64,000 bases of DNA from a virus (IMGVR_UViG_3300046642_001000:103935-167934); one strand, 5' to 3'. Shown: positions 4 to 52,596, counted from the stretch's first letter. Notes: generated by a model from the sequence alone, not told the origin. Made by a program: numbers and translations.

Positions 4-1593
4 GTGGCGCTGGAGAGGGTGGTGGTCAAGCGGGCCCTGACGAAGACGGGTGCGATCCTCCACCGCTTCATCACGCTCACGTTCACCGTCTTCCAGCCCG
101 AACGGGTCTTCGACGAGTCCAACGAAGACTTTGACGAGTGGTGGGCGCTCGTCCGTCCCGGGACGTACTTCATCCTGCGCTACGGCTGGACCGGGCAGTC
201 CAGCAACGACCTGCTCAACGGCAACGGGATCGTCGACAAGAACAACTTCGTCGAGGGCCAGCACGACGTCCTCTTCCAGACCACCACCTGGAACTTCAGC
301 ATCAACCCGGACGGTTCTCTTTCCTTTGTCATCCAGGCGATCGACTCGGGAGACAACATCCTGGCCCAGGTCCACCTGTCGGACCTCGACTACTTCTCTT
401 CCCCCGCCCCGCAGGGACAGGAGAACAGCACTTCCTACACCGTCGGTACGAAGAACACCATCAAGGAGACCAGGTCTCCCGACGGCCAGGCGATCATCAA
501 GAAGCTCCAGAACACCATCCACGACCTGTACAATCCGTCCGGTGGAGGACAGGGAACCCCCGGCGGGAAGGGCGGACGTGCGGTCCCGTTCAGCGAGATC
601 CTGAACAAGGTCTTCGCCCCGCTGATGACGAGCGCCGTGAAGGCCGTCGGCTACGACGACGTGCAGCTCTTCCTCGGGATGTTCAACCACGACATCGGAG
701 CGGCTCGGAAGGACTGCGGCGGCGTGATGCAGGGCAAGAGCATCGGGGACTTCCTGGTCCCCGAGTCCTGGTTCAAGGACCTCCTCGGGTTCAAGCGGGC
801 CAGCGGCCAGCAGCTGAACCTCATGGCCGTCTTCAAGAACCTGCTCAACTACATCCAGCGCCAGGAGAACTGGGCCGGAGCTGGCCTGACGGACGCCGAG
901 AAGCAGCAGGCGGAGAAGGCGGCCACCGAGAACGGGCAGGTCAACAAGAAGCTCCAGGCGACGGAGGAGGCCAGGATCCTCAGGAAGCGCCAGAGCCCGC
1001 CGGAACTCATGGTGAAGACGGCCACCACCCGGGACAAGGGAAAGCTGGTCTACAGCCTGTACATCTACGACATGAAGCAGCTGTCGGCCAGCATCGACTT
1101 CGATGACCGGCTGGACCCGTCCGTCAAGGTCGACGAGATCCACAAGAAGCTCAAGAAGTACAACATCCCGTTGGTCAGCTTCAAGAACGGGCTCTCCTAC
1201 ATCCAGGAAGCCAACTTCAGCATGGAACAAGATGCGAACATGCAACACATCGCCATCGAACGTGCTGTCGATCCCAACCGCTACCAGACCGTCGGCGTGA
1301 CCCACGCCGCCCAGGCTGCCGACGGCATCGATCCCCGTAAGCTCTTCCTCTCGTCGAACATCACGGGCCGGATCACCATGATCGGGAACTTCGTGTGGGA
1401 CACGTTCCTCCGGATCTGGCTCGAGTTCGGAGTCAAGCGTTGGGACGGACCGTTCCACATGATGGAACGGGAAGACACCATCGACGCCTCCAACTTCATC
1501 ACGACCGTCTCTGTCCGCGCCACCGGCACGGATCCGCTCAACACCCAGGGTGTTCTCAAGGACACCCAGCATCGCAACACAAATCCAGTGTAA
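4..1593 (+). CDS. hypothetical protein, possibly truncated at the 5' edge of the window
   Basis: 529-aa ORF open from position 4 with a GTG first codon; GC-rich codon third positions; no motif recognised. Confidence 0.5.
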   Translation: MALERVVVKRALTKTGAILHRFITLTFTVFQPERVFDESNEDFDEWWALVRPGTYFILRYGWTGQSSNDLLNGNGIVDKNNFVEGQHDVLFQTTTWNFSINPDGSLSFVIQAIDSGDNILAQVHLSDLDYFSSPAPQGQENSTSYTVGTKNTIKETRSPDGQAIIKKLQNTIHDLYNPSGGGQGTPGGKGGRAVPFSEILNKVFAPLMTSAVKAVGYDDVQLFLGMFNHDIGAARKDCGGVMQGKSIGDFLVPESWFKDLLGFKRASGQQLNLMAVFKNLLNYIQRQENWAGAGLTDAEKQQAEKAATENGQVNKKLQATEEARILRKRQSPPELMVKTATTRDKGKLVYSLYIYDMKQLSASIDFDDRLDPSVKVDEIHKKLKKYNIPLVSFKNGLSYIQEANFSMEQDANMQHIAIERAVDPNRYQTVGVTHAAQAADGIDPRKLFLSSNITGRITMIGNFVWDTFLRIWLEFGVKRWDGPFHMMEREDTIDASNFITTVSVRATGTDPLNTQGVLKDTQHRNTNPV

Positions 1594-1620
1594 GTTTTCC
1601 TTCCCTTTTCCTCCTGCACA

Positions 1621-1629
1621 TGATATTAT
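1621..1629 (+). promoter_or_regulatory. candidate extended -10 (TGaTATTAT) just upstream of the polymerase start
   Basis: TG-n-TATTAT lies 5 nt before the ATG at 1635, the same pattern as other promoters in this window. Confidence 0.3.
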
Positions 1630-1634
1630 ATGCA

Positions 1635-3074
1635 ATGGAGGAACTCGACCTGAGCTCTGTTCTCGACGCGGTTCACGGGAAGCCGGTCGTCCTGGTTCCT
1701 TTCAAGGATCAGGCCGGAGGGCGCGCCGTGGCCATGTTGGCCGGCACGGTGTTCGAGTTCGTGTTGGATCCGGCAGTCGGCTTCGTGAACGAGGTCGCCC
1801 GGGAAGCCAGCCACGTCGTCTGCTTCGAGCACCGGAACCTCGAGGACATCTGCACCTCGGGCAAGACGGTCTATGACGTGAAGATCCTCTATGGCGGGGA
1901 GCGGAAGCTCTTCGACCTGGCCCGTGACTACCTCGACCCGGACATGGCCCGGAACGTCCTGGACCGGGAACAGAACTACACCGCCCACGTCAAGGCCTGC
2001 AAGACGGCGGGGATCGACGTCACCCGTCACTCCCTTCTCAAGCTGATGCCCGCCAGGGCTGTCCAGTCACTCCTCAAGGTCCGGGCCATAGCAACTATGG
2101 CGTTGTTTGAGAAGGCCCTCCGGGGTGAGTCCTGCGACCTCGGAGAGTATGAGAGGGACACCTGGCCGTTCGCCCTGGCTCTCCGGCAGATCGAGGTCGT
2201 CGGCATCAAGGTCGACGTGGGCTACGCGAAGGAGAAGCTCCGGGAAGACCTCCCGAAGCACGAGCACAAGTTCATCTCTCAGATGGCGCAGTCGGACGGT
2301 TACGTCCGTACCCTCTTCAACCCGGCAGGCGGGAAGACCGGCCGCATCAAGGTCGAAGAGGGGTTCAACTGCATGGGCATCCCGCACGGCACGGTCCGCA
2401 AGGGGATCGTCAGCCGGCACGAGGGCGGGGAGATCGTGGCCTTCGACTACAACGCCATCGACTACCGGAGCATCGTGGCCTCGCTCGACGACAAGGACTT
2501 CCGGAAGATCTACGACGGGGTGGACGACTTCCACGTGAAGACCTGCGAGATGATCCTCTCGGGTCCGCCCGAGAAGCTCCGTCGAGACATCATCAAGTAC
2601 TTCTCCTACGTGTACATCTATGGAGGGTCGGACGAGACCCTCGCTTCGAAGACCAGACTGAGCATGATGAAGGTCCAGCAGGTGAAGCAGGTGATGGACC
2701 GGAAGCTCCGTCCCATCGCGGACTTCCGCCGGAAGCTGGCCGTGCAGGCCCGGGTGGACGGGTTCGTCATGCTGCCGAGCGGTCGGAAGATCCCGGTGGC
2801 CGGGGACGACCACGACGGCAAGATCATCGGGCTCTACGCCCAGGGGTTCAGCTCCTGGGTCTTCGAGCAGGCGTTGGTCCGGGTGGTGGCCTACCTCCGC
2901 GAGAAGCGGAGCAAGGTCATCTTCACGGTCCACGACGAGCTGGACATCGACATGCACCCCGAAGAGGGGAAGGAGATGCTGGTCGTGAAGTCTCTCATGG
3001 AGGCGCCAGTAGAAGGATTCACGTTCAGGGCGAACCTGAAGAGAGGCAGGACGTATGGCGACGCGACCGACTGA
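1635..3074 (+). CDS. family A (PolA-like) DNA polymerase, polymerase domain only
   Basis: motif A FDYNAIDYRSIVASL (like DYSQIELR), motif B RRDIIKYFSYVYIYGGS, motif C TVHDEL; no exonuclease domain; an alternative start is at 1620. Confidence 0.8.
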   Translation: MEELDLSSVLDAVHGKPVVLVPFKDQAGGRAVAMLAGTVFEFVLDPAVGFVNEVAREASHVVCFEHRNLEDICTSGKTVYDVKILYGGERKLFDLARDYLDPDMARNVLDREQNYTAHVKACKTAGIDVTRHSLLKLMPARAVQSLLKVRAIATMALFEKALRGESCDLGEYERDTWPFALALRQIEVVGIKVDVGYAKEKLREDLPKHEHKFISQMAQSDGYVRTLFNPAGGKTGRIKVEEGFNCMGIPHGTVRKGIVSRHEGGEIVAFDYNAIDYRSIVASLDDKDFRKIYDGVDDFHVKTCEMILSGPPEKLRRDIIKYFSYVYIYGGSDETLASKTRLSMMKVQQVKQVMDRKLRPIADFRRKLAVQARVDGFVMLPSGRKIPVAGDDHDGKIIGLYAQGFSSWVFEQALVRVVAYLREKRSKVIFTVHDELDIDMHPEEGKEMLVVKSLMEAPVEGFTFRANLKRGRTYGDATD

Positions 3075-5615: not shown

Positions 5616-8600
5616 TTGTCCCGGCTCGACGACATCATCCGAGAGTCGCTCCGATCAATCTACGGGGCGTCTCAACCAAACTACTCAGGGCGTGCAGCCG
5701 GCGGGACCGGCGACAACCGGCATGGCGGTGGTGCGGGCAAGCCCGGGTACCCGGTGCCGGACGGTCTCGAGGACGACGAAGAGCAGCGGTTCCCCTTCAT
5801 GAAGGAAGGCGAGGCACCCTTGGCCAAGTCCCCCATCCCCGACGATGCCGGCGCCGCACAGGAGCCGACCGTCACCTACTCCGACCAGAGCGATCTCACC
5901 GAAGGCGGCAACGCCATGGGGACCGACCGTGTCCCCCGTGAGAACGTCGGACCGACGATCGAGGCCTACAAGAAGCAGGTCCTCTCCAAGGTCAAGCACA
6001 AGTCCGTGAAGCCCGTGGGTTCCACCGGCAAGAAGGCGTCCAGCGGGGACATCGACCTCGGCCTGGACACCGAACTGTCCCTCGAAGAGATCTCGGCCAT
6101 CCTGAAGAAGCTGGGGATCGAGCACAAGGTCGCCAAGGGACTGGGCGAGATCAACTCCAAGTTCCCGCAGTACACCCCTGATGGCAAGCCCACCAAGCTC
6201 TCCGCCCAGGTCGACCTGATGGTCGGTCCGGAGGCGTGGACCCAGTTCTCCTATTATGGACCTGGCGAGAGCGAGTCTAAGTACAAGGCGCTTCCCCGCA
6301 CAGGTCTCGTCCTCGGTCTCCTCCGGTACGCCACCGAGGAACCGCAGCCGGACGGCTCGGTCAAGTTCTGGTCCATCAGCCCGGCCAAGGGAGTCTTCCA
6401 GAAGGTCGGTCGGAAGGTCAAGAACAAGAAGGGCGAGGAAGAGTTCAAGTCGGACCGTGTGGACGCCACCAGCATCAGTGATCCCGAGGAAGTGGCCAAG
6501 CTCATCTCCAAGGGCACCGGCACGCCGTGGTCCGTGAAGGACCTGGCTGCGCCGTTCGAGCAGGTGTGGGCCAAGGCCAAGTCCACCATGGATCCGAAGA
6601 AGCTGGAGAAGGTCAAGGGCTACCTGAAGGGCTTCCTCAAGGGAGCCAAGCACGACGAGCCGTCGGAGCTCGGTGAAGCGAACGAGCCCGAGGGCGTCGT
6701 CTTCCGCGGTCTCCGTGGTCTCACTCCCCAGGAGCTCGCCAAGCTCGGCGGCAATCCGTCCCAGCCGAACGGCTCGGCGGTGATCAGCAAGGTCGACAAG
6801 AAGGGCTACTGGTCCGCCAATCCGAAGCTGGCCATGGTCTATGCCACCACCGCGGCCACTGCGGAACGGAAGGGCAACATCATGGCGATCCTCCGCGGGC
6901 GTTCGGACGCCGCGACCAAGGGTTCGGCCAAGGCGCTCAACCCCGGCACCCACGAGACCCGGATCGACAAGATCTGGTGGTCGACGGATCCGGGCCAGCT
7001 GAAGGCGGCCAAGCTCGACGAGGGCGGCGGCATCTCTCACCTCGAGGACATGAAGCCCCAGGAGTTCCTGCAGTTCCTGGCGAAGTACAAGGACCTGCCG
7101 CTCAAGGGCGGGCTCGAGGTCTCCGAGAAGGTGGACGGCTCCGCCCGCATGGAGTTCGGTGCCGAGAACGGAAAGCTCTGGACCAAGAGCAAGAACGGGA
7201 CTCCGAAGAAGTCTTCGAAGGAGTGGCCGGACAAGCCGATGTTCGCGGCTCTCAAGAACGCCCACAAGGCGCTCGAGTCCAAGCCGGTGGGACAGAACAT
7301 CCCGCCGAACACCGTCTTCACGGCCGAGGTCCTGTACACCAAGATCCCGAACTCCATCGAGTACGGTCCGAACGTCATCATGATCCACGGCGTCCACAAG
7401 GGCGACGCGGTCCTGTCCGACGAGGCCTCCAAGAAGGTGGCCAACGACCTCATCAAGAAGTCGGGCGGCCAGCTCACGGACGGCAAGGACCCGTGGAAGT
7501 TCGAGTACAAGCGGGTCATCAGCCCGGAAGACGTGATGGTGGACGTCAAGGAGGAGTTCACCTCCCTCGGACAGATCTACCAGGAGCTGAAGAAGCTCGA
7601 GCCGGACAAGCTGAAGGCGGCGGGCAAGGGCCCGTACAAGGCGGCCATGGAGCGCTTCTCGGCGATCCAGAAGGCGGTCAAGGAGAAGCTGGTCGGACAG
7701 CTCCGGAAGCAGAAGTCCTCCTACGGTCCCGAAGGCGGGGACGTGGAAGGCATCGTCTTCCGTGACCTGGAGAACGGCGCGCTCACCAAGCTCGTCGACA
7801 AGGACCTCTTCACGAAGCTCAACCAGTTCAACTGGAAGTACCGCGGTCTCATCGGCAAGGGGACCAAGGTCGACAACATCTGGCGGAACGGCGTCATCTC
7901 CGACTTCAGGAAGCGGGTGGCCACCGACGTCATCGGGAAGCCTGAGGCGGCCAGCACCGCCTTCGGCCGGCAGCTCTCTTCCCTGAACTCCGAGACAGAG
8001 TACCCGAAGGAAGCCGACACCCCCGAGAAGAAGAACGACTACCTGCTCGGACAGTGGGTGAAGAAGAACAAGGCCTTCGGCGGAAAGGACCCGGTCGCGA
8101 CCTTCAAGGCCGAGATCACCAAGGCTCAGAACGAGATGAAGCAGCTCGAGGCCGAGTGGGCCGCCGAGAAGAAGAAGGGGCCGACCGTCCAGCTCAAGGG
8201 GCAGACCCGGAAGATGGACCCGCTCGTGATGCAGCGGACGGACACGGACTTCCAGCAGGCCCACCAGTCGCTGGACGAGCTCCAGAAGGCCGCCGAGGCG
8301 ATCGGTGGGCTCAAGGGCGACCTGACCAAGAAGGTAGCCATCATGAAGCTCTTCCTCGGCCAGCACCGTCTGGAGAGGCTCCAGGGCGGCGGCGAGGAAG
8401 AGGCCGAGGAATCCGTCATGCGTGAAGCACCCGGAGTGGATTCGTACGGGGCCACCCAGCCGCAGACCGGCCAGAAGCCGACCTCGGGGTTCGACAAGAC
8501 CAGCGTCGCCCAGACCAAGACCAAGGGCGCGCCCAAGGCCACCACCGGCGTCACGACCGAGATGGCCCAGCAGATCCTCAAGAAGAACATCCCCCAGCTG

Positions 8601-11600
8601 GCGAAGCGGGGGATCAACGTCCGTGGGGCCCACCCGCTCGGGAAGGGAACACGTGGAGTCGCGTTCGACGTCGGAGGGAAGGTCCTCAAGATCACCAACG
8701 ACGAGCAGGAGGCGGTCGCTTCCTACAAGCTGATGGACGTCAACCTGAAGCACGTCGCCCGCTTCTCGGACGTCTTCCGCTTCCGTGAGGACGAGGAACT
8801 GGTCGGCGCCGTTTACGGCATCCTCCAGGAGAAGCTCGCCCCGTTCCCGGGCATGGGCAAGGACCCCAGCGGTCTGGACGCCAGCGGAGAGGCGGCTGAT
8901 CTGAACCGCGCCATCCTCGCTTTCAACCTTCAGGAGACGATCTACCGTTCGGGCTACAACTGGGACAAGACCAAGGAAGCCTGCCAGGAGGGCGTTTTCA
9001 AGAAGATCGCCGAGAAGTACCCGACCTGGAAGACGGACGAGATCGACAACAAGTACGCCATCGCCTACGCCAAGAAGATGAACGTCCAGTGGGACATCAT
9101 CACGAAGAAGGTGCATATCGACGAGATGGTGCAGGAGCTGAACTCGAAGGGGATCAAGTTCCACGACTACCACGCGGGCAACATCATGGTCCGCCAGGGC
9201 GGGGTCTACGTTCTCATCGACATCGGCTACTCCAAGGTCGCCGGCGGGAAGGAACCGCCCGTCCTGGAGAACAAGGTCCCGTACCTCGACGAAGGTCCGC
9301 CGAACAGGCTGGCCGCCCTCAAGGCCGCTCAGGCCGGTAAGAAGGCCCAGAAGGACCGTCCCATGATGGACGTGGTCCGGGACGTGCTCCCTCTCCTCAA
9401 GAAGAAGGGGATCGTGAAGGGACCGCTCAAGCCGCTCGGACACGGGGCGCACGGCATCGCCTTCGACATCGGAGCAGGTCGGGTCCTGAAGGTGACGGAC
9501 GACATCCTTGAAGCCAAGTCCTCCAACCATCTGAAGGACAAGAAGCTCAAGCACGTGGTCCACATCTTCGACGTCTTCCAGCTCCCTGGGTCGGAGTTCT
9601 ATGGCATCGTCGAGGAAAAGCTCGCCCAGATGTCGGCCTACGACAAGAAGGAGTTCGAGCTGGTGACGGACCTGCTGCAGGCCTGCAAGGCTGGCGAGGC
9701 CATCCTCTCGGGCGACTACGGCAAGGTGATGGACCAGGTCCGGCTCCACATCAAGGACAAGGACGTCCAGAAGCTGATGGACTCCCAGATGAAGGAGTTC
9801 CAGCTTCCGGAGATCATCAAGGAGCTGGCGGGCCAGCGTATCGAGTTCCTCGACTACCACGAGGGGAACCTGATGATGCGGGGCAACGACTACGTCGTCA
9901 TCGACCTCGGTCTCAGCCAGAGCCCGGGCGCGGCTCCCCCTGTCCTCGAGCGGATCGTCCACACCCTGATGCGGGAGTTCTCCGGTACCCAGCGCCTCAA
10001 GGGCCAGGGTCCGGTGGGACGTGCCGACGACCTGGAAGAGCGGAGCAAGCCGGACTACACGGACGACAAGCAGGAGTACGTCGGCGTAGACGGCGGCCTC
10101 GTGAATCACACCGAGGACGGCACGGTCGACAAGTACGCTCGAAACATCGAGGAGGCCCAGGCTGACACGGTGGGCGTGACCATAGGACGTTACCAGCCGT
10201 TCCACCGGGGTCACGCCGAAGTGATTCGGAAGCTCGCCAATACCCACACCAAGACCATCGTCCTGGTGGCCGGCAACACGCCGGACAAGAAGAACCCGTT
10301 CTCCTACGAGACCCGGCTCAAGCTCATGAAGGCGTCCCTCCCGGACGTCTGGAGGAAGCTGGAGGTCTACAAGGCGACCTCGGGCGGCAAGAACAGCGGC
10401 TTCGTCCCGGGCATCCTCTCCGACGTGGCCGGGAAGGGCAGCGCCCTGAAGGGCGACACGGCCTGCGAGATCCTGGTCGGACCCGACCGTTTCGAGCAGA
10501 TGAAGCAGCAGATCGACCGGTCCAAGGAGTACAAGGCCCAGGGGAAGGCGGCAGACAGCAACTTCGATCCCGATCTGGCCGTCGTCAAGATGCTTCCGGG
10601 CGTCAAGAACGACGACGACACCGACCGGATCAGCGGCACCCGTCTACGTCAGGCTCTGGCCAAGGACGACCGGAACGCCGTCAAGAGCATGCTCGACCCG
10701 CATGTCACCTCGAACCAGGCGACCTTCGAGTCCATCTACAAGGATCTGAAGGACGAGCTGGCCAAGAACGAGGGTCCGCTCCGGGAAGACATCGCCGACT
10801 TCGGTGGCGAGAACGCCATCATGGCCGTCATCAAGAACAACGGGGAGAAGCTCCGTGCCAAGGGCATCAACGCCGACCAGCTCCATCGCCTCGGAGCGGG
10901 ACAGGTCGGCGTGGCCTACGACATGGGCAACAACAAGGTCTTCAAGGCGACGACCTCTCCCAACGAGGCGAAGTCCTGCCTCGCCCTCAAGGGAAAGACC
11001 CTTCCGCACGTCGTCAAGATCGATGACGTCTTCCGGATGATCGACCGTCGAAACCCCGACAAGCCCCTCTACGGAATCATCCGGGAGAAGCTACACCCCC
11101 TGTCTCCGGCCGAGAAGACCGAGGTCGATGACCTGGTCGATGACCTCCGCTCCTCCGAAGTCACGGGCGGGGCGCCCCACATCGTGGACTACGACACGGT
11201 CATGAAGAAGATCCGTGACGAGCTCTCTCGCGACCTGGTGTCTGCCGGCGCCAAGAACCGCGAGCGGATCCAGCGGATGATCGACCAGAAGATCGACTAC
11301 ATCGAGCGCGGTCTGAAGAAGTACCAGATCGACCAGATGATGGCGGAGCTCAAGCAGGCCAACATCATGTTCGCCGACTACAAGGGCGACAACATCATGA
11401 AGCGTGGCGGGGAGTACGTGCTCTCTGACCCGGGCGGCCGTACCAACGGCGGCGAACCGCCCGTGCTCGAGAAGATCATGGAGACCATCATCTCCGAGAT
11501 CGGCATCACCATGACCCCGGGAAGCGGCCCCGGCGGAACTCAGGCAGGTCTCAGGGCGGGAAGCTCCGGCTGGTCCAGCCCGCAGAACATGTTCACCGAC

Positions 11601-12521
11601 GAGGACGTCGCGGCCTACCAGGAAGCGCCGGAAGAGTTCGAGCTCTGGTCCGACAAGCTGAAGGGTGTCGACACGGCCAAGGCCATCGGGGAAGAGATCA
11701 TGCGGCTCCTTGAGAAGACTCAGGCCAAGACGTCTGACCGCGCCTCCAACCAGTTCGAGCACCTGGTGGCCAAGTCCCTCCAGAGCCAGGGCATCGACGC
11801 CAAGGCCGTCGGTGGCAACGATCCGAAGAAGGCGGACGTCGAGGTGACCATCGGCGGGAAGAGCGCCTACATCGAGGCCAAGTACACCGAGGCCGGCGGC
11901 GCCAACCTCGTCTCGGCCCGCATGAAGCTGGTGGACGGGAAGTGGCAGGGATCGGGCGAGCAGACCGGCTTCACGGCCGGGATCGCCAAGGACCTGGAGA
12001 CGAACCCCGACGCCCAGAAGTTCCTGAAGGAACTGCACGCCTTCGTGGCCAAGAGCCGCAAGGAGCAGGGTCTTCCGGTGCCCAAGGTCCTCTCCATGCC
12101 GTCGCAGGGGAAGCCCGCCGACATCATGAAGCGTAGTCCGAACGCCGTGACCCCGGACGAGATCAACGCCTTCATCGACAACAAGAAGTCGGCAGGCAAG
12201 GGCAACCGCTACATCTACCTGAACGTCGGGGCGGGGGACGTGCAGCAGCTGGTGGCCGCCCACTACAAGTACAAGAACGCCCCGTACATGCAGTTCGGCA
12301 ACGACTTCTATCTTCTTGGAGACGAGGACCCGTTCGGTCTCTCCAAGCTCAATCCGCCCGTCCCCCAGTTCGAAGTGACCTCGGGACGGAAGGGGGTACG
12401 TGTAGCATCCAGGACCGGTCGTTACGAGATCATCCCCGAGCTGAAGGCCCTGAAGGTCACTCCCTCTCCCTACAGCCTGGTCGATCCGAAGAAGAAGTTC
12501 CCATTCAAGAAGCAGAAGTAA
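5616..12521 (+). CDS. giant multidomain protein of 2301 aa carrying five enzyme-like domain types
   Basis: TTG start 5 nt after an AAGGAGGG Shine-Dalgarno; very high GC3; GS..G....SGDIDL near residue 135; KVDGSAR near residue 504; three G.G..G.A.D.G...K + HDYH.GN + IDIG modules each ending PPVLE; GRYQPFHRGH ... ISGTRLR. Confidence 0.85.
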   Translation: MSRLDDIIRESLRSIYGASQPNYSGRAAGGTGDNRHGGGAGKPGYPVPDGLEDDEEQRFPFMKEGEAPLAKSPIPDDAGAAQEPTVTYSDQSDLTEGGNAMGTDRVPRENVGPTIEAYKKQVLSKVKHKSVKPVGSTGKKASSGDIDLGLDTELSLEEISAILKKLGIEHKVAKGLGEINSKFPQYTPDGKPTKLSAQVDLMVGPEAWTQFSYYGPGESESKYKALPRTGLVLGLLRYATEEPQPDGSVKFWSISPAKGVFQKVGRKVKNKKGEEEFKSDRVDATSISDPEEVAKLISKGTGTPWSVKDLAAPFEQVWAKAKSTMDPKKLEKVKGYLKGFLKGAKHDEPSELGEANEPEGVVFRGLRGLTPQELAKLGGNPSQPNGSAVISKVDKKGYWSANPKLAMVYATTAATAERKGNIMAILRGRSDAATKGSAKALNPGTHETRIDKIWWSTDPGQLKAAKLDEGGGISHLEDMKPQEFLQFLAKYKDLPLKGGLEVSEKVDGSARMEFGAENGKLWTKSKNGTPKKSSKEWPDKPMFAALKNAHKALESKPVGQNIPPNTVFTAEVLYTKIPNSIEYGPNVIMIHGVHKGDAVLSDEASKKVANDLIKKSGGQLTDGKDPWKFEYKRVISPEDVMVDVKEEFTSLGQIYQELKKLEPDKLKAAGKGPYKAAMERFSAIQKAVKEKLVGQLRKQKSSYGPEGGDVEGIVFRDLENGALTKLVDKDLFTKLNQFNWKYRGLIGKGTKVDNIWRNGVISDFRKRVATDVIGKPEAASTAFGRQLSSLNSETEYPKEADTPEKKNDYLLGQWVKKNKAFGGKDPVATFKAEITKAQNEMKQLEAEWAAEKKKGPTVQLKGQTRKMDPLVMQRTDTDFQQAHQSLDELQKAAEAIGGLKGDLTKKVAIMKLFLGQHRLERLQGGGEEEAEESVMREAPGVDSYGATQPQTGQKPTSGFDKTSVAQTKTKGAPKATTGVTTEMAQQILKKNIPQLAKRGINVRGAHPLGKGTRGVAFDVGGKVLKITNDEQEAVASYKLMDVNLKHVARFSDVFRFREDEELVGAVYGILQEKLAPFPGMGKDPSGLDASGEAADLNRAILAFNLQETIYRSGYNWDKTKEACQEGVFKKIAEKYPTWKTDEIDNKYAIAYAKKMNVQWDIITKKVHIDEMVQELNSKGIKFHDYHAGNIMVRQGGVYVLIDIGYSKVAGGKEPPVLENKVPYLDEGPPNRLAALKAAQAGKKAQKDRPMMDVVRDVLPLLKKKGIVKGPLKPLGHGAHGIAFDIGAGRVLKVTDDILEAKSSNHLKDKKLKHVVHIFDVFQLPGSEFYGIVEEKLAQMSAYDKKEFELVTDLLQACKAGEAILSGDYGKVMDQVRLHIKDKDVQKLMDSQMKEFQLPEIIKELAGQRIEFLDYHEGNLMMRGNDYVVIDLGLSQSPGAAPPVLERIVHTLMREFSGTQRLKGQGPVGRADDLEERSKPDYTDDKQEYVGVDGGLVNHTEDGTVDKYARNIEEAQADTVGVTIGRYQPFHRGHAEVIRKLANTHTKTIVLVAGNTPDKKNPFSYETRLKLMKASLPDVWRKLEVYKATSGGKNSGFVPGILSDVAGKGSALKGDTACEILVGPDRFEQMKQQIDRSKEYKAQGKAADSNFDPDLAVVKMLPGVKNDDDTDRISGTRLRQALAKDDRNAVKSMLDPHVTSNQATFESIYKDLKDELAKNEGPLREDIADFGGENAIMAVIKNNGEKLRAKGINADQLHRLGAGQVGVAYDMGNNKVFKATTSPNEAKSCLALKGKTLPHVVKIDDVFRMIDRRNPDKPLYGIIREKLHPLSPAEKTEVDDLVDDLRSSEVTGGAPHIVDYDTVMKKIRDELSRDLVSAGAKNRERIQRMIDQKIDYIERGLKKYQIDQMMAELKQANIMFADYKGDNIMKRGGEYVLSDPGGRTNGGEPPVLEKIMETIISEIGITMTPGSGPGGTQAGLRAGSSGWSSPQNMFTDEDVAAYQEAPEEFELWSDKLKGVDTAKAIGEEIMRLLEKTQAKTSDRASNQFEHLVAKSLQSQGIDAKAVGGNDPKKADVEVTIGGKSAYIEAKYTEAGGANLVSARMKLVDGKWQGSGEQTGFTAGIAKDLETNPDAQKFLKELHAFVAKSRKEQGLPVPKVLSMPSQGKPADIMKRSPNAVTPDEINAFIDNKKSAGKGNRYIYLNVGAGDVQQLVAAHYKYKNAPYMQFGNDFYLLGDEDPFGLSKLNPPVPQFEVTSGRKGVRVASRTGRYEIIPELKALKVTPSPYSLVDPKKKFPFKKQK

Positions 12522-12543: not shown

Positions 12544-13068
12544 ATGGAGTCTTGGATCGCTGCCCGGTGCCCCACCGACGAGGGGGACTACATTCTCAAG
12601 AACGCTTCTCGCACCCTCATCAGGTTCAGTGAAAGGTGCCAGCCTGACATCGCCCAGCTCATGTCTGAGATGGAGGAGCTGAACGTCCCGTTCTCCTACG
12701 CCGACAAGGTCAAGGAGATCTACTTCACCCTGATGCCCGACCACGGAGACCACCTCAACGGTCTCATCCGCATCAGCTTCACGAACCAGTCCCGAGAGAT
12801 CCTCGCCCGCATCCTCATCCACGAGCTGGCCCACAACATCGACGATGAAGAAGGTCTGTCTGAACGAGACGACATCATCACCGAGAAGAAGAAGAAGGCC
12901 CGCTACCTCCCCGACACCTACGCCCGGAAGAACGTCGACGAGTACATCGCGATCGGATTCGAGACGTACTACTGCGGCACTCCCGAACAGAAGCGCAAGA
13001 TGAAGCGGTGCAACCCGCGGCTCTTTGGCGCAATTAGATACCTTCACCGAAAGTACCGAGCGCGTTGA
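12544..13068 (+). CDS. putative zinc metallopeptidase (HExxH)
   Basis: ILIHELAHNID motif; an AGGGAGGG Shine-Dalgarno lies upstream. Confidence 0.5.
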   Translation: MESWIAARCPTDEGDYILKNASRTLIRFSERCQPDIAQLMSEMEELNVPFSYADKVKEIYFTLMPDHGDHLNGLIRISFTNQSREILARILIHELAHNIDDEEGLSERDDIITEKKKKARYLPDTYARKNVDEYIAIGFETYYCGTPEQKRKMKRCNPRLFGAIRYLHRKYRAR

Positions 13069-14739: not shown

Positions 14740-16032
14740 ATGGCAAAGAAGGACAAGGACGAAGCCCCGTCGACCAAGGACGAGGCGGATTCCCTCAAGC
14801 TCAGCAAGCTCCTCGTCAAGCAGTTCAACGACGGGGAAGACAAGATCGCCTGGAACCTCGGGACCGATCATGACAACCCCACCGAGGTGAAGGAGTTCAT
14901 CTCCTTTGGTTCCACCCTCCTCAACTACATCTGCACCAACCGACGCAACGGGGGTGCACCCGTGGGCAAGATCACGGAGATCGTGGGTGAGGAAGCCTCG
15001 GGCAAGTCGCTCCTGGCGGCCCACCTGATCGCGGAATGCCAGAAGCGGGGCGGCATCGCGGTCTACATCGATACGGAGAACGCGGCCAGTCCGGAGTTCC
15101 TCGTGCAGCTCGGGGTGAACATCAACGAGCTCGTCTACCTCCAGCCCGGCTGCTGCGAGGCGGTGGGCGAGGCGATCGACAAGACCATCCTCACGGCTCG
15201 GGCCAAGGCGCCGAACAAGCTGGTCCTCATCGTCTGGGACTCCATCGCGAACTGCCCGACCAAGGCGGAGCTCGAGGGGAGCTACGACCTGAACATGAAC
15301 CTCCAGCTGGAGAAGTCCAAGGTCCTCAGCAAGATGATGAGGAAGCTGGTGGACACGCTCGGCAAGGAAAGGATCTGCGTCGTCTTCACGAACCAGCTGA
15401 AGACGAAGATCGGCGTCATGTACGGCGACCCGATGACGACCCCCGGAGGAAAGGCGGTCCCCTACGCGGCCAGCCTCCGCATCCGCCTCACTCGCTCCAC
15501 CCAGCTCGTCCAGGGCAAGCCGAAGAAGGGCGAGGAGAAGGAAGAGGGGACGGAGGGCGCGTCGGAGGGAGAAGGCAAGAAGGAGGCCAAGGGCGCGGTC
15601 TACGGCATCAACACAATCGCCAAGGTGATCAAGTGCCGCCTCGGTCCCCCGCTCCGCCAGTGCCGGTTCGACATCACGTTCTCCTCGGGCATCGACGACG
15701 AGGAGAGCTGGTTCACCCTGCTCCATGAGCGGGGCGAGATCGAAAAGCAGAAGGGGTGGTGCTACTACTCGAAGTACCCGTCGGGGAAGATGTCCCTCAA
15801 GGAAGACCCGACCAACCCGAAGAAGGAGGTCGAGTACGATCGCGGCCTCATGTTCCGGGAGAAGGAGTGGAAGAAGGCCCTCAAGGACTTCCCCGACTTC
15901 AAGACCCACGTCCAGAACGACCTCGAGAAGCACCTCATCGTGAAGTACGGCGAGACGCCGGCGGACTTCGGGGGAGACTCCGACAGCCTGCTGGACGTCG
16001 AGGCGGCGCTGGAAGTCGCCCAGGGTGGGTAA
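14740..16032 (+). CDS. recA: RecA/UvsX-like recombinase
   Basis: Walker A GEEASGKS, an IDTENA block, and NQLKTKIGVMYGDPMTTPGGKAVPYAASLRIRL aligning with the RecA core; plus a roughly 130-aa C-terminal extension. Confidence 0.9.
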   Translation: MAKKDKDEAPSTKDEADSLKLSKLLVKQFNDGEDKIAWNLGTDHDNPTEVKEFISFGSTLLNYICTNRRNGGAPVGKITEIVGEEASGKSLLAAHLIAECQKRGGIAVYIDTENAASPEFLVQLGVNINELVYLQPGCCEAVGEAIDKTILTARAKAPNKLVLIVWDSIANCPTKAELEGSYDLNMNLQLEKSKVLSKMMRKLVDTLGKERICVVFTNQLKTKIGVMYGDPMTTPGGKAVPYAASLRIRLTRSTQLVQGKPKKGEEKEEGTEGASEGEGKKEAKGAVYGINTIAKVIKCRLGPPLRQCRFDITFSSGIDDEESWFTLLHERGEIEKQKGWCYYSKYPSGKMSLKEDPTNPKKEVEYDRGLMFREKEWKKALKDFPDFKTHVQNDLEKHLIVKYGETPADFGGDSDSLLDVEAALEVAQGG

Positions 16033-17281: not shown

Positions 17282-18274
17282 ATGCCCTCTAGGGTTCTCA
17301 TCATCGACGGGCTCAATACCTTCATCCGGAACTGGTGCGTCAATCCCACCATGGACGGGAACGGCGGTCACGTCGGCGGCATGATCGGCTGTCTGCGTTC
17401 CATCAAGAACCTCGTCAGAGACACCAAGTGCACCAGGGCGGTCATCGCCTGGGACGGCAAGGGCGGGTCCCGAAAGCGCCGTGGCATCTACAAGGAGTAC
17501 AAGGCGGGGCGCAAGCCTCGGGTGAACCGGCACCTCGACATGGACAACGTCGAGGAAAGCCAGAAGAATCTGTGGGAGCAGCACGCTCTTACCCGGAAGT
17601 ATCTCGAAATGCTGGGCGTCTGTCAGGTGGAGGTGGAGGACTGCGAGGCGGATGACGTCATCAGCTACCTCTGCTACAGCATGTACCACGACGTGCAGAA
17701 GGTCATCGTCTCGACGGATCGTGACTTCTGGCAGCTCGTCAACAAGAACACGATCGTGTACTCTCCCACCCGCAAGGTGTACTACAGTCCGGGCGAGATC
17801 AAGGAAGAGACGGGCGTCCTCCCCATCAACTACATCTATATCAAGGCGATCAGCGGCGACAAGTCGGACAACATCCAGGGTATCGCGAACCTGGGTCCCA
17901 AGACGGTCGTCAAATTCTTCCCGTTTTTGGCGGATCACGAGAGCAATCTCGAGGAAATCAAGGCGGCTGCGCAAGCCTTGGTACCGACAGGGAAGCGCGA
18001 GAAAGAGCTCCTGAAGGCGCTTTTGGAGCAGTGGGAGGTAATTATCACCAACGTTCGTCTCATGCAGCTCGCCAACCCGATCATCTCGCCGCAGTCCACG
18101 CACTCGATCCGCCACCAGGTGGGGAAAGACGTGGGGTCGGTGAACGTCAGTGCCATCAAGCTGGCGCTCCTTCGGGACAACATCCAGATACACGACCAAG
18201 ATTTCTTCATGGTCTTCAACGAGTACCGCGGTCGCTTCACGGCGGATACCAGAGAGGATTCCCAGAATGTCTGA
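17282..18274 (+). CDS. 5'-3' exonuclease / flap endonuclease (FEN, RNase H-like)
   Basis: VLIIDGLNTFIRNW, EADDVI and GDKSDNIQGI motifs of the 5'-nuclease family. Confidence 0.85.
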   Translation: MPSRVLIIDGLNTFIRNWCVNPTMDGNGGHVGGMIGCLRSIKNLVRDTKCTRAVIAWDGKGGSRKRRGIYKEYKAGRKPRVNRHLDMDNVEESQKNLWEQHALTRKYLEMLGVCQVEVEDCEADDVISYLCYSMYHDVQKVIVSTDRDFWQLVNKNTIVYSPTRKVYYSPGEIKEETGVLPINYIYIKAISGDKSDNIQGIANLGPKTVVKFFPFLADHESNLEEIKAAAQALVPTGKREKELLKALLEQWEVIITNVRLMQLANPIISPQSTHSIRHQVGKDVGSVNVSAIKLALLRDNIQIHDQDFFMVFNEYRGRFTADTREDSQNV

Positions 18275-21453: not shown

Positions 21454-21464
21454 CGTGGTATAAT
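21454..21464 (+). promoter_or_regulatory. extended -10 promoter CGTGGTATAAT
   Basis: TGGTATAAT; the annotated ATG lies 10 nt after the hexamer, so the leader is near-absent. Confidence 0.45.
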
Positions 21465-21474
21465 GGATTTCACA

Positions 21475-34322: not shown

Positions 34323-34841
34323 ATGAAGCAAGACATCATCCTCTTCGAAGGACCGGACGGCGTGGGGAAGACCACCATCGCCAAGGCTCTCTCCAAAGAG
34401 ATCGGCGTCCCGTACTTCAAGATGAACTCGGAGCACGACAACTGGCGCAAGGGGAAGTTCAAGGAGGCGCTGGAGTTCGACCAGACGTACCTCACCCAAT
34501 TCCTCAAGCAGACCGGGTGCTCGGTCATCATCGACCGCGCCTGGCCGAGCGAGTGGGTATACTCCATGGTCTTCAAGAGGGAGACGAACTTCTCGGTCCT
34601 CTCTCAGCTGGACCGGGAGTGGAGTGAGCTCGGCGCCCGCATCATCATCCCGTGGCGTGAAGACTACACGAAGAACCGGGAGGACGAGCTGGTCCCGAAG
34701 AACAAGCTCAAAGAGATCCACGACGCCTACTTCGACTTCATGGAGTGGACGAACTGCGACGTCGTTCCAGTGAACGTGGACTACTACAAGAACGACACCA
34801 AGTCGGAGCTGGACTACATCATCCCGCTCCTCATGAGATAG
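34323..34841 (+). CDS. thymidylate/nucleotide-monophosphate kinase-like protein
   Basis: P-loop FEGPDGVGKTT typical of dTMP kinases. Confidence 0.65.
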   Translation: MKQDIILFEGPDGVGKTTIAKALSKEIGVPYFKMNSEHDNWRKGKFKEALEFDQTYLTQFLKQTGCSVIIDRAWPSEWVYSMVFKRETNFSVLSQLDREWSELGARIIIPWREDYTKNREDELVPKNKLKEIHDAYFDFMEWTNCDVVPVNVDYYKNDTKSELDYIIPLLMR

Positions 34842-34846
34842 GAGAC

Positions 34847-47117: not shown

Positions 47118-47149
47118 TCCTTCCCAAGGAGGAGGTTCCGTGGTATAAT
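47117..47149 (+). promoter_or_regulatory. class A promoter: GTCCTTCCC then 21 nt then GTGGTATAAT
   Basis: the upstream element starts at the G of the preceding TAG stop; fixed 27-nt spacing; ATG follows 6 nt after the hexamer. Confidence 0.5.
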
Positions 47150-47155
47150 GTAACC

Positions 47156-52535: not shown

Positions 52536-52596
52536 GTGTACACCTGAAGGATCTTGGGATAGAATGTAATTTCAATTGGATATGGAGAACCCAATG
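52536..52596 (+). promoter_or_regulatory. class B promoter (GTGTACACC, then 15 nt, then TAGAAT) plus a conserved leader/ribosome-binding cassette
   Basis: 24-nt fixed spacing from GTGTAC to the hexamer; CAATTGGATATGGAGAACCCAATG is 22/24 identical to 57585..57608. Confidence 0.5.

What the first reader, a model, noticed from the sequence alone, without database searches (positions are those of the whole stretch)
5616..12521. A 2301-residue protein fusing five enzyme-like domain types, possibly a phage-encoded nucleotide/NAD or RNA-processing hub
One open reading frame, with a TTG start after a strong Shine-Dalgarno and uniformly high GC3, carries in order: a pol-beta-type nucleotidyltransferase motif (GS..G....SGDIDL); a covalent nucleotidyltransferase/ligase-like motif I (KVDGSAR) with a downstream EGIVFRDLENGALTKLVDKD motif IV/V-like block; three protein-kinase-like modules; and an HxGH/ISxTxxR nucleotidyltransferase domain. 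I know of no single protein with this combination. It could be an ejected anti-defence or host-takeover enzyme, for example for NAD+ reconstitution or RNA repair or modification.
Basis: partly seen in the sequence, partly recalled or inferred. Interest (0 to 1): 0.9.

Follow-up and report, generated by a model that had tools for sequence, protein, structure and literature searches.

The report
Giant multi-enzyme phage effector protein
One real 2301-residue phage gene strings together at least eight enzyme modules (a DNA-polymerase-beta-like nucleotidyltransferase, an ADP-ribosyltransferase-like fold, an RNA-ligase-like module, three stripped-down kinases, an NAD-synthesis-like adenylyltransferase and a nuclease). 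It is always followed by a small protease gene, which makes it look like a new variant of the "polyvalent" proteins that phages are thought to use against host defences.

Summary
The ORF at 5616-12521 (+) is intact, starts at TTG after a GGAGG, and has uniform GC3 of about 0.90. It recurs almost identically in two independent assemblies and as 19 or more diverged relatives in the same gene order.

- Three minimal kinase modules with every catalytic residue kept.
- A HIGH-superfamily nucleotidyltransferase nearest NadM-type NMN adenylyltransferases.

Two modules were missed: a mobile ADP-ribosyltransferase-fold domain (355-471) and a C-terminal PD-(D/E)xK nuclease.

An anthrax-lethal-factor-like zincin gene (12544-13068) directly follows the giant gene in all five loci read. 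Relatives swap in 2H phosphoesterase, inorganic pyrophosphatase and lytic transglycosylase modules.

Best reading: a new variant of a phage polyvalent effector polyprotein. It would combine RNA end-healing and sealing, NAD-linked chemistry, kinases of unknown target and a nuclease, and is probably cut up by the neighbouring protease. Function, processing and virion packaging are all inferred. A DNA-repair role is the main rival.

The parts
5616..12521 (+). Whole gene: 2301-aa multi-module protein (TTG start, stop included)
   Evidence: Identical gene call in two Logan assemblies. Relatives P0001-P0022.
5616..5894 (+). N-terminal region (aa 1-93), predicted disordered. It has a conserved start (RLDDII..LRSIYGASQPNYS) and a conserved short motif G.G.PGYPVP (aa 43-48, nt 5742-5759).
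   Evidence: Alignment of N-termini. The motif is kept in 12 of 15 relatives, whatever domain follows it. Its function is unknown.
5895..6674 (+). Module A (aa 94-353): Pol-beta superfamily nucleotidyltransferase, palm plus thumb, PolX/TENT-like. Catalytic G135-S136, D145, D147, D200.
6678..7028 (+). Module B (aa 355-471): small mobile domain with an ADP-ribosyltransferase-like fold. The invariant residues include R364 (FRG), W (YWS) and A..YA, but no invariant acidic residue.
7029..8384 (+). Module C (aa 472-923): covalent nucleotidyltransferase (ligase) domain with an all-alpha C-terminal extension, RNA-ligase type. Motif I K505-x-D-G; motif IV at 711-717; motif V K725/K729.
8580..9320 (+). 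Kinase module K1 (aa 989-1235): minimal protein-kinase-like fold. G-loop at 1008, D1184, N1189, D1202.
9348..9989 (+). Kinase module K2 (aa 1245-1458). G-loop at 1274, D1413, N1418, D1430.
   Evidence: PHROG T7-type protein kinase at E 4e-4. NCBIfam Bud32 at E 5.9e-6, below its cut-off.
10113..10805 (+). Module F (aa 1500-1730): HIGH-superfamily nucleotidyltransferase, NadM-NMNAT-like. GRYQPFHRGH (H1530, H1533), NPFSYETR, ISGTRLR at 1672.
   Evidence: Pfam CTP_transf_like at 2.8e-8, above its cut-off. PHROG cytidyltransferase at 2e-18. TIGR00125 above its cut-off; NMNAT equivalogs far below theirs. Profile against PDB: NadM NMNAT 2qjt 8e-12, MJ0541 2.4e-11, PPAT about 1e-7.
10833..11510 (+). 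Kinase module K3 (aa 1740-1965). G-loop at 1759, D1921, N1926, D1938.
11583..12518 (+). Module G (aa 1990-2301): PD-(D/E)xK (Mrr/Hjc-like) nuclease core (E2048, D2074, E2087-x-K2089) plus an uncharacterised C-terminal part. It is preceded by a conserved AGSSxWSS linker motif.
   Evidence: Pfam Mrr_cat at E 0.0015, 19.0 bits against a cut-off of 21; also E 0.0014 in P0004. The profile against PDB aligns the E..D..ExK motif to Hjc resolvase 7bgs at E 0.1. Alignment of 4 relatives. The fold was not modelled.
12544..13068 (+). Neighbouring gene: 174-aa zincin metallopeptidase (HELAH at 93-97 plus a downstream Glu), anthrax-lethal-factor / Pro-Pro-endopeptidase-like. Proposed processing protease of the giant protein.
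   Evidence: Directly downstream of the giant gene in all five loci read. HExxH and E invariant. Pfam ATLF at 2e-5, 24.9 against a cut-off of 27.4. PDB profile: lethal factor 3e-4, PPEP 0.028.

Best explanation
The gene encodes a phage polyvalent multi-enzyme polyprotein. It is the conserved signature of a clade of uncultivated large phages with about 62% GC.

Shown here:
- One polypeptide carries eight catalytic-looking modules in this order: PolX-like nucleotidyltransferase, ART-fold domain, RNA-ligase-type module, two minimal kinases, NadM-like HIGH nucleotidyltransferase, a third kinase, PD-(D/E)xK nuclease.
- The catalytic residues of the nucleotidyltransferase, ligase, kinase and HIGH modules are invariant across relatives.
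- Modules are shuffled and swapped between relatives. 2H phosphoesterase replaces the NTase. Inorganic pyrophosphatase and SLT transglycosylase are inserted. There are two alternative C-termini.
- A lethal-factor-like zincin gene always follows.

Inferred:
1. The NTase-ligase pair, or the 2H-ligase pair in relatives, heals and reseals RNA, most likely tRNA cut by host anticodon nucleases. The NTase would restore lost 3' nucleotides and the ligase would seal the break.
2. The NadM-like module makes NAD+ or a related dinucleotide. This would offset host NADase defences and/or feed the ART-fold module.
3. The three kinases phosphorylate host proteins, as the T7 gp0.7 kinase does. One of them may instead supply the 5'-kinase step of RNA repair.
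4. The nuclease attacks host or competitor nucleic acid.
5. The neighbouring zincin cuts the polyprotein into its working parts.
6. The protein acts at the very start of infection. It may be carried in the virion and ejected with the DNA, because two relatives carry a lytic transglycosylase inside the same polypeptide.
For: Real gene:
- Intact ORF with uniform GC3, found in two independent assemblies.
- 19 or more relatives and 8 IMG/VR viral contigs.

Domain identities.

RNA rather than DNA ligase:
- The C-terminal extension is all-alpha with no OB fold.
- In P0002 and P0012 the NTase is replaced by a 2H/LigT cyclic phosphodiesterase just upstream of the ligase (Pfam 4.9e-12).
- A Pol-beta NTase next to an RNA ligase is the described RlaP-Rnl arrangement of phage RNA repair (PMC7824862).

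Polyvalent character:
- Modules move and are exchanged between relatives.
- P0021 carries the InPase domain (PF18823, 1.7e-34), which Iyer et al. 2017 describe as a component of polyvalent proteins.
- P0004 and P0014 carry SLT (4.6e-27).
- The kinases lack the C-lobe. The same is described for kinases of polyvalent proteins.
- The neighbour is a lethal-factor-like zincin. That fold is the hub peptidase proposed to process polyvalent proteins.
- Gene order is strictly conserved in five loci.
Against: - No activity, cleavage or packaging has been shown.
- The gene lies between PolA/HD and SSB/UvsX/DnaB, in the replication module. Phage polyvalent proteins are typically next to late virion genes or fused to MuF/portal. 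Tail-like genes do lie about 6 kb upstream on the same strand.
- The kinases do not match Pfam Kinase-PolyVal.
- No module except the HIGH NTase passes a curated Pfam or NCBIfam cut-off.
- The NadM-like match covers only the N-terminal 60 residues.
- No Nampt, PNK or tRNA genes were found in the window.
- The ART, 2H and SLT modules each occur in only a few relatives.
- The AF2 models come from shallow alignments of 7-15 sequences.
Confidence: 0.55

Rival explanations
1. DNA-repair or replication accessory hub. The PolX-like module fills gaps, the ligase seals DNA nicks, a kinase phosphorylates 5' ends and the PD-(D/E)xK nuclease processes ends. This would resemble the ASFV PolX-ligase base-excision system or bacterial LigD, and would be expressed with the replication genes.
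For: - The gene lies among PolA, HD, SSB, UvsX, FEN-like exonuclease, DnaB and DnaE.
- Module A aligns best in rmsd to the minimal ASFV PolX (2.8 A over 139 of 176 residues) and to Pol beta/lambda/mu.
- tblastn finds no T4-like DNA ligase elsewhere in the window.
- The standalone homologue of module A in Atu_ph07 lies a few genes from a primase/helicase gene.
Against: - The ligase module has no OB domain, which all known DNA ligases have. Its C-terminal part is helical, as in T4 Rnl1 and Rnl2.
- The best structural matches are RNA ligases.
- Relatives replace the NTase with a 2H phosphoesterase, an RNA 2',3'-cyclic-phosphate enzyme.
- The NadM-like module, the ART-like module, SLT, InPase and three kinases have no obvious place in DNA repair.
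- RNA terminal transferases (GLD2, TUT4, CutA) match module A about as well as PolX enzymes do.
Confidence: 0.15
2. The same multi-enzyme protein, used mainly against competing phages or mobile elements (superinfection exclusion) rather than against host defences.
For: - Iyer et al. note that polyvalent domains may prevent superinfection.
- The C-terminal nuclease is the most variable part, with two unrelated-looking alternative C-termini. That pattern is typical of arms-race effectors.
Against: - Nothing specific points to phage-phage conflict.
- The RNA-repair-type and NAD-type modules are defensive and restorative rather than offensive.
Confidence: 0.1
3. A dedicated NAD+ reconstitution or nucleotide-metabolism enzyme (one of the first reader's examples), with the other modules accessory.
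For: - NadM-type motifs GRYQPFHxGH, NPFSxxxR and ISxTxxR are invariant or nearly invariant in the 14 aligned relatives.
- The module is present in nearly all full-size relatives (14 of 15).
Against: - No Nampt-like or ADPR-PP-type partner among the ORFs scanned against PHROGs.
- NMNAT equivalog models are missed by a wide margin.
- This module is about 10% of the protein.
Confidence: 0.05
4. Artefact or non-enzymatic structural protein: an assembly chimera or frameshift fusion of ordinary genes, or a tape-measure or internal scaffold protein with decayed enzyme-like motifs.
For: High-GC DNA gives long spurious ORFs; the antisense strand has one of 1520 aa.
Against: - Coding-type GC3 of 0.90 throughout, while the antisense ORF is a shadow.
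- Two independent assemblies differ by 2 residues.
- Relatives of 36-67% identity keep one ORF of about 1300-2400 aa (most about 2200), in the same gene order wherever the locus was read (five loci).
- Catalytic residues are invariant.
- No structural-protein family hit.
Confidence: 0.02

Closest known systems
Phage-type polyvalent proteins (Iyer, Burroughs, Anand, de Souza, Aravind 2017, J Bacteriol; PMC5512222)
   Same: - Very large phage protein joining enzymatic domains with unrelated chemistries.
- Modules are shuffled between relatives.
- Shared repertoire: ART fold, Pol-beta NTase, C-lobe-less kinases, 2H, InPase (PF18823 in relative P0021) and peptidoglycan hydrolase (SLT in P0004 and P0014).
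- Association with a lethal-factor-like zincin metallopeptidase, the proposed processing enzyme.
   Different: - The core here is an RNA-ligase-type module plus a NadM-like HIGH NTase plus tandem kinases. In the 2017 paper the word 'adenylyltransferase' never occurs, and its authors state they never saw polyvalent 2H domains together with RNA ligases.
- The kinases do not match Pfam Kinase-PolyVal.
- The zincin is a separate neighbouring gene.
- The gene sits in the replication module, not next to head genes, and has no MuF or portal fusion.
Phage and cellular RNA heal-and-seal systems: T4 Pnkp + Rnl1/Rnl2, RlaP (Pol-beta NTase)-Rnl pairs of jumbo phages, fungal/plant Trl1, and the 'Swiss-army-knife' repair proteins of Burroughs & Aravind 2016
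   Same: - Ligase of the covalent nucleotidyltransferase fold, closest to Rnl2/Rnl5/Trl1/REL1.
- A Pol-beta NTase is fused directly upstream, as RlaP is associated with Rnl.
- 2H phosphoesterase sits in the same position in relatives.
- Kinases are in the same polypeptide, as in Trl1.
- A nuclease is fused to the ligase-bearing protein, as in the HNH-Rnl2 fusions.
   Different: - No P-loop polynucleotide kinase and no HAD or calcineurin 3'-phosphatase. The kinases have the protein-kinase-like fold.
- No Pfam RlaP, Rnl1 or Rnl2 match at curated thresholds.
- Far larger, with NAD-linked and other modules.
- The 2016 paper could not be read here, so comparison with its SAK family rests on Pfam names only.
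NadM-type NMN adenylyltransferase (archaeal NMNAT MJ0541, Francisella/Synechocystis NadM-Nudix; phage NAD+ salvage)
   Same: GRFQPFHxGH, NPF[ST]xxxR and SxTxxR motifs. Best PDB profile hits at 8e-12 and 2.4e-11.
   Different: - Only the first 60 or so residues align.
- Fails the NMNAT equivalog cut-offs.
- No Nudix or kinase partner domain, and no Nampt-like partner among the scanned ORFs.
Phage T7 gp0.7 and bacterial effector kinases (YopO/YpkA, SteC), and minimal kinases of the Bud32/RIO type
   Same: G-loop, beta3 Lys, catalytic D..N and the DxG Asp are all conserved. Profile hits to YopO (6e-4), MSK1, S6K and SteC. PHROG T7 kinase family at 4e-4. Bud32 at 5.9e-6.
   Different: - Only about 205-245 residues, with nothing after the DxG motif (no activation segment or C-lobe helices).
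- Three tandem paralogues at about 30-35% identity.
- No curated family threshold is met.
- Substrates are unknown.
ASFV PolX + ASFV DNA ligase (minimal base-excision repair pair)
   Different: The ligase here lacks the OB and DNA-binding domains. RNA ligases score higher. Relatives use 2H in place of the NTase.

Membership tests
Polyvalent proteins (Iyer et al. 2017) | Two or more domains of disparate biochemical activity in one polypeptide of a phage or conjugative element | tested here: met
   Eight modules of six or seven fold types in one ORF of a phage contig.
Polyvalent proteins (Iyer et al. 2017) | Draws on the shared domain network (zincin MPTase hub, ART, kinase, Pol-beta NTase, 2H, InPase, lysozyme/SLT) | tested here: inconclusive
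   For: InPase PF18823 at 1.7e-34 in relative P0021; SLT and 2H in relatives; LF-like zincin next door. Against: kinases give 0 of 28 matches to PF18762 Kinase-PolyVal; the NTase here is PolX-like, not the minimal NTox45-like version described.
Polyvalent proteins (Iyer et al. 2017) | Phage versions lie next to late or virion genes, or are fused to MuF/portal | tested here: not met
   Immediate neighbours are PolA, HD, small ORFs, zincin, SSB and UvsX. A baseplate-wedge-like gene and large tail-like genes lie about 6 kb upstream. No MuF or portal domain.
Polyvalent proteins (Iyer et al. 2017) | Packaged in the virion and delivered with the DNA | not testable with these tools
ATP-dependent RNA ligases (covalent nucleotidyltransferase superfamily; Rnl1/Rnl2/Rnl5/Trl1) | Motif I KxDG lysine nucleophile plus motifs III, IIIa, IV and V | tested here: met
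   K505-V-D-G. E (AEVLY), M.HG, EG.VFRD and K..VDK are invariant or nearly so in 14 relatives.
ATP-dependent RNA ligases (covalent nucleotidyltransferase superfamily; Rnl1/Rnl2/Rnl5/Trl1) | Adenylyltransferase fold. RNA-type accessory domain rather than the OB fold of DNA ligases and capping enzymes | tested here: met
ATP-dependent RNA ligases (covalent nucleotidyltransferase superfamily; Rnl1/Rnl2/Rnl5/Trl1) | Sequence membership in a curated family (Pfam RNA_lig_T4_1, RNA_ligase) | tested here: not met
   Only sub-threshold hits at motif I in relatives (E 1e-4 to 0.04). No PDB sequence hit. hhalign to T4 Rnl1, Rnl2 and gp30 not significant.
Pol-beta superfamily nucleotidyltransferases / family X polymerases / RlaP | hG[GS] ... 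DxD ... D catalytic signature on the Pol-beta palm | tested here: met
   G135-S136, D145, D147 and D200 are invariant in 12 relatives. Fold matches.
Pol-beta superfamily nucleotidyltransferases / family X polymerases / RlaP | Family X extras: 8-kDa lyase and helix-hairpin-helix fingers domains | tested here: not met
   The modelled domain starts at the palm. Residues 1-93 were not modelled and read as low-complexity, probably disordered sequence. This resembles the minimal ASFV PolX.
Pol-beta superfamily nucleotidyltransferases / family X polymerases / RlaP | Sequence membership in the RlaP (RNA-ligase-associated Pol-beta) family | tested here: not met
   The Pfam scan of the whole protein at E up to 1 lists no RlaP hit. 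Only the architectural association with an RNA ligase is shared.
NadM-type NMN adenylyltransferase (HIGH superfamily) | (H/T)xGH, NPF[ST]xxxR and SxTxxR motifs. Pfam CTP_transf_like. | tested here: met
   GRYQPFHRGH, NPFSYETR and ISGTRLR; invariant columns. Pfam 34.5 bits against a cut-off of 21. TIGR00125 36.7 against 27.7.
NadM-type NMN adenylyltransferase (HIGH superfamily) | Full-length equivalence to NMNAT (NCBIfam equivalog cut-offs) | tested here: not met
   About 31-33 bits against cut-offs of 127-409. Only about 60 N-terminal residues align.
Protein-kinase-like fold kinases | Gly-rich loop, beta3 Lys, catalytic Asp and Asn, metal-binding Asp | tested here: met
   Invariant G, G, K, D, N and D in 28 kinase modules of the family. 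156 PDB sequences match the profile at E up to 1; the 60 listed are almost all protein kinases, best YopO at 6e-4.
Protein-kinase-like fold kinases | Complete C-lobe (activation segment, APE, helices F-I). Curated family thresholds. | tested here: not met
   Only about 20-30 residues follow DxG before the next linker. APE/C-lobe absence was read from the sequence, not modelled. APE, ABC1, Pkinase and Bud32 hits are all below cut-off.
ADP-ribosyltransferase superfamily | Split beta-sheet ART fold | tested here: inconclusive
ADP-ribosyltransferase superfamily | R-S-E or H-Y-E catalytic triad | tested here: not met
   R (FRG) and the W[ST] position are conserved, but there is no invariant Glu or Asp in 7 relatives.
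PD-(D/E)xK nucleases (Mrr/Hjc-like) | E ... D ... (D/E)xK motif on the restriction-endonuclease core | tested here: inconclusive
   FE2048, D2074-V-E, E2087-A-K2089. E, E and K are invariant in 4 relatives, and the D is shifted in one. Mrr_cat 19.0 bits against 21. Hjc 7bgs at E 0.1, aligned on the motif. Fold not modelled.
Zincin metallopeptidases of the anthrax-LF / PPEP type (neighbouring gene) | HExxH plus a downstream Glu ligand. LF-like catalytic core. | tested here: met
   H93-E-L-x-H97, E133 and E140 are invariant in 4 orthologues. PDB profile: LF 3e-4, PPEP 0.028. Pfam ATLF 24.9 bits, just under the cut-off of 27.4.
'Swiss-army-knife' RNA repair proteins (Burroughs & Aravind 2016) | SAK-type HAD phosphatase and 2H domains with an RNA ligase | not testable with these tools
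   The paper is not held. The only evidence is a sub-threshold 2H-SAK hit in relative P0002 (E 4e-4). No HAD hit in the window protein.

The most novel reading that the evidence does not exclude
The protein could be a pre-made 'first-responder' polyprotein that travels with the genome and is cut by its co-encoded lethal-factor-like protease into about eight enzymes. Together these would form a self-contained, NAD+-coupled RNA restoration and modification machine. On this reading:
- A kinase of the protein-kinase fold acts as the RNA 5'-kinase, which would be a new activity for that fold.
- The Glu-less ART-fold domain acts on RNA 2'-phosphate, as Tpt1 does, or attaches RNA or ADP-ribose to host targets.
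- The NadM-like module supplies the NAD+, or caps RNA with it.
- All of this happens before any phage gene has been expressed.
Probability: 0.1. Interest if true: 0.85.

Novelty: new variant of a known kind. Interest (0 to 1): 0.62.

Why it matters
If this reading is right, the family extends the polyvalent-protein idea in three ways:
- It adds RNA repair and NAD+ chemistry to the repertoire. The original survey did not find polyvalent 2H domains linked with RNA ligases.
- It provides a conserved, testable protease-substrate gene pair for the long-proposed processing step.
- It supplies three new-looking enzyme families: a minimal kinase present in two to five copies per protein, a Glu-less ART-fold domain that also exists as a 135-aa standalone protein, and an OB-less ligase found as a standalone gene in jumbo phage RsoM2USA.

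Each module is small enough to express and assay. The variable positions (NTase or 2H; with or without ART, InPase or SLT; two nuclease types) give a natural experiment on which host defences are being countered.

Tried and rejected
- Near-identical DNA in the INPHARED phage collection: none. tblastn gave only piecewise hits at 27-35% identity to jumbo phages.
- Profile searches against PDB sequences for modules A and C: nothing significant.
- hhalign of the ligase profile against T4 Rnl1, Rnl2 and DNA ligase: not significant, although the Rnl2 alignment falls on motif I.
- First AF2 run: failed on module B (pLDDT about 30, 2 informative sequences). The word-indexed homologue search for B found nothing. 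The exhaustive HMMER search rescued it.
- My idea that module B is a classical R-S-E ART: the fold is supported but there is no conserved Glu.
- Idea that 'PP' dipeptides at the end of each kinase (EPPVLE) are Pro-Pro-endopeptidase cleavage sites. Three of the 6 PP dipeptides in the protein sit there, but relatives P0003 and P0008 have no PP at all. The site hypothesis is therefore weak.
- Idea that the HExxH region inside P0014 is the same zincin fused in: BLASTP matches the motif only (E 0.27) and Pfam finds nothing.
- A ParB-like reading of the P0004 N-terminus: no Pfam support.
- The Burroughs & Aravind 2016 paper (RlaP and SAK definitions) could not be retrieved.
- The supplements of the jumbo-phage paper are not held.
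- tRNA scan of the window: none.


Full report
**1. The observation**

The window carries one ORF at 5616..12521 on the + strand. It starts at TTG and encodes 2301 aa. A GGAGG lies 8 nt upstream, directly after the stop codon of the preceding gene.

GC by codon position is 0.61/0.38/0.90. GC3 stays at 0.84-0.95 in every 900-nt block and matches the neighbouring genes. The 1520-aa ORF on the opposite strand (5685..10247) has GC1 of 0.90 and is a shadow of this frame.

The exact protein is called in two independent Logan assemblies, SRR26075503 (a 76-kb contig) and SRR26077543. It differs from the window copy by two conservative substitutions. This rules out a frameshift or a chimera.

**2. Relatives and context**

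A search of 5.8 billion proteins returned 15 proteins of 1313-2382 aa at 36-67% identity, all from metagenomes and none with an informative name. Further searches added fragments and more distant members. Eight IMG/VR viral contigs also carry relatives. No cultured phage in INPHARED has the gene. Only standalone homologues of single modules appear there: RsoM2USA_438 for the ligase module and Atu_ph07 AUZ94877 for the NTase module.

The same gene order holds in the five loci read (the window's own contig in two assemblies, plus three diverged relatives) (PHROG annotations):
- large tail-like genes;
- a 104-aa baseplate-wedge-like gene;
- a gene of about 600 aa;
- PolA;
- an HD phosphohydrolase;
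- three or four small ORFs;
- the giant gene;
- a zincin of about 170 aa;
- an SSB-like gene, UvsX, a FEN-like exonuclease, DnaB and RNR.

The window is therefore part of a large lytic-type phage genome of about 62% GC. The gene sits at the head of the replication module.

**3. Anatomy, module by module**

- **Module A (aa 94-353).**
  - AF2 gives pLDDT of about 90.
  - Foldseek finds the Pol beta/lambda palm-thumb (E of 7e-5 and above).
  - G135-S136, D145, D147 and D200 are invariant in 12 relatives.
- **Module B (aa 355-471).**
  - It occurs in only a few relatives. In P0006 it sits after the ligase instead.
  - An exhaustive HMMER search found it in other giants and as standalone proteins of about 135 aa.
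  - With those sequences AF2 reached pLDDT 78 and pTM 0.74.
  - An Arg (FRG) and a W[ST] position are invariant, but no acidic residue is.
- **Module C (aa 472-923).**
  - Motifs I (K505xDG), III, IIIa, IV and V are invariant in 14 relatives.
  - The region after motif V is helical, with no OB barrel.
  - Sequence-only methods give just sub-threshold RNA-ligase hits at motif I.
- **Kinases K1 (989-1235), K2 (1245-1458) and K3 (1740-1965).**
  - They are paralogues at about 30-35% identity.
  - Across 28 such modules from the family the Gly-loop glycines, the beta3 Lys, the catalytic Asp and Asn, and the DxG Asp are invariant.
  - The profile hits protein kinases in the PDB, best YopO at 6e-4.
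  - Pfam and NCBIfam give only sub-threshold APH, ABC1 and Bud32 hits, and none to Kinase-PolyVal.
  - Nothing resembling a C-lobe follows the DxG motif.
- **Module F (aa 1500-1730).**
  - It is the only module above curated thresholds: Pfam CTP_transf_like and TIGR00125.
  - Its nearest solved relatives are NadM-type NMN adenylyltransferases (8e-12 and 2.4e-11) ahead of PPAT (about 1e-7).
  - The NadM motifs are conserved.
  - Only about 60 residues align, and the NMNAT equivalog cut-offs are missed by far.
- **Module G (aa 1990-2301).**
  - It carries an E..D..ExK motif.
  - That motif aligns with Mrr_cat (19.0 bits against a cut-off of 21) and with an Hjc resolvase (E 0.1).
  - Other relatives have a different C-terminus with a GRGE...YDL...WEVKE pattern that also looks restriction-endonuclease-like by eye. 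I did not test that.

**4. Module exchange**

- P0002 and P0012 have a 2H/LigT phosphoesterase in place of module A.
- P0021 has B, then InPase, then kinases, then the HIGH NTase.
- P0004 and P0014 have an SLT transglycosylase inserted.
- Kinase copy number varies from two to five.
- A short motif, G.G.PGYPVP, is kept near the N-terminus whatever follows it.
- An AGSSxWSS motif precedes the C-terminal nuclease.

**5. The neighbouring gene**

The gene at 12544-13068 encodes a 174-aa protein with HELAH and downstream Glu residues, invariant in four orthologues. It matches the anthrax lethal factor catalytic core (PDB profile 3e-4) and Pro-Pro endopeptidases (0.028). Pfam ATLF scores just under its threshold.

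**6. Interpretation**

The architecture fits the polyvalent proteins of Iyer et al. 2017:
- disparate enzymes in one phage polypeptide;
- modular exchange between relatives;
- ART, Pol-beta NTase, truncated kinases, 2H, InPase and peptidoglycan hydrolases;
- a lethal-factor-like zincin proposed to release the domains.

Within that frame, several features follow the syntax of phage RNA repair described for jumbo phages: RlaP NTase with RNA ligase, 2H, and NAD+-dependent KptA. These features are the NTase-ligase pair, its 2H-ligase alternative, the RNA-ligase-type structure, and the presence of ART-fold and NAD-synthesis-like modules.

I therefore favour a counter-defence effector polyprotein. 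It would reseal cleaved RNA, sustain or use NAD+, phosphorylate targets and carry a nuclease, and the neighbouring zincin would cut it up. The SLT-bearing relatives suggest passage through the cell envelope, meaning virion delivery, but the gene's position argues otherwise. I leave that point open.

**7. Rivals**

- **DNA repair.** This is the serious alternative. It rests on the replication context, the PolX-like module A, the small gap between DNA- and RNA-ligase scores, and the lack of another detectable ATP-dependent ligase in the window. Against it stand the missing OB domain, the 2H substitution and the many modules with no DNA-repair logic.
- **Pure NAD+ reconstitution.** This is unlikely without partner enzymes.
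- **Artefact or structural protein.** Both are excluded.

**8. Novelty and limits**

I found no description of this architecture in the searchable literature. The 2017 survey states that polyvalent 2H domains were never seen with RNA ligases. The key 2016 RNA-repair paper could not be read.

Noticed in passing
window 5685-10247 (- strand): A 1520-aa ORF lies antisense to the giant gene. Its GC1 is 0.90 and its GC3 is 0.62, so it is a shadow of the high-GC3 sense frame and not a gene.
   Followed up: yes
window 5742-5759 (aa 43-48) and relatives: The short motif G.G.PGYPVP is conserved near the N-terminus of 12 of 15 relatives, whatever domain follows it. In P0004 it lies after an extra N-terminal domain of about 130 aa. 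It could be a cleavage, packaging or docking signal. It remains unexplained.
   Followed up: partly
window aa 1214, 1441, 1948 (nt about 9255, 9936, 11457) and aa 2246-2251: Each kinase module ends with EPPVLE. LNPPVPQ near the C-terminus resembles, from memory, the VNP|PVP site of Pro-Pro endopeptidases, to which the neighbouring zincin is weakly similar. The PP is not conserved in relatives P0003 and P0008.
   Followed up: partly
window 1395-3074 and 26957-30484: The window holds two different DNA polymerase genes. One is family A (PolA-like, with an HD phosphohydrolase right after it). The other is a 1175-aa DnaE-type Pol III alpha at only about 29% identity to any phage in INPHARED.
   Followed up: no
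window 22445-23398, 43162-44028, 34745-35326, 46979-47833, 25355-26419, 21463-22452, 40654-41442: There is a dense set of nucleotide-metabolism genes: two thymidylate-synthase-like genes of different PHROG families, a nucleoside 2-deoxyribosyltransferase, a MazG-like pyrophosphatase, a weak glycosyltransferase hit, a DHH phosphoesterase and a metallophosphoesterase. Together they hint at a modified base in the phage DNA.
   Followed up: no
window 52576-53571: A second RecA/DnaB-like ATPase (331 aa, phrog_26214 / DnaB-like C-terminal domain) is present in addition to DnaB (18150-19664) and UvsX (14740-16032).
   Followed up: no
relative P0014 aa about 255-595; relative P0004 aa 1-130: P0014 has an internal HExxH stretch (FAFAHELGHAMD) between its NTase and ligase modules. 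P0004 has an extra N-terminal domain with a ParB-like-looking DG...GNTR motif. Neither is recognised by Pfam, and the P0014 region is not detectably related to the neighbouring zincin.
   Followed up: partly
relatives P0005, P0007, P0009-P0011, P0014, P0015, P0002 (C-termini): Most relatives end in a different domain of about 400 aa with a GRGE...YDL.V.G..WEVKE pattern. By eye this is another restriction-endonuclease-like core, so the C-terminal nuclease may have been displaced by an analogue. Pfam finds nothing.
   Followed up: partly
L004 (Ralstonia phage RsoM2USA 309479-311161) and L005 (Agrobacterium phage Atu_ph07 51340-52173): Cultured jumbo phages encode standalone homologues of the ligase module (RsoM2USA_438, 560 aa) and of the NTase module (AUZ94877.1, 277 aa). 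Both are annotated as hypothetical. They would be convenient for biochemistry.
   Followed up: partly
window 1-64000: There are no tRNA or tmRNA genes in 64 kb of a large phage genome that appears to carry RNA-repair-type modules.
   Followed up: yes
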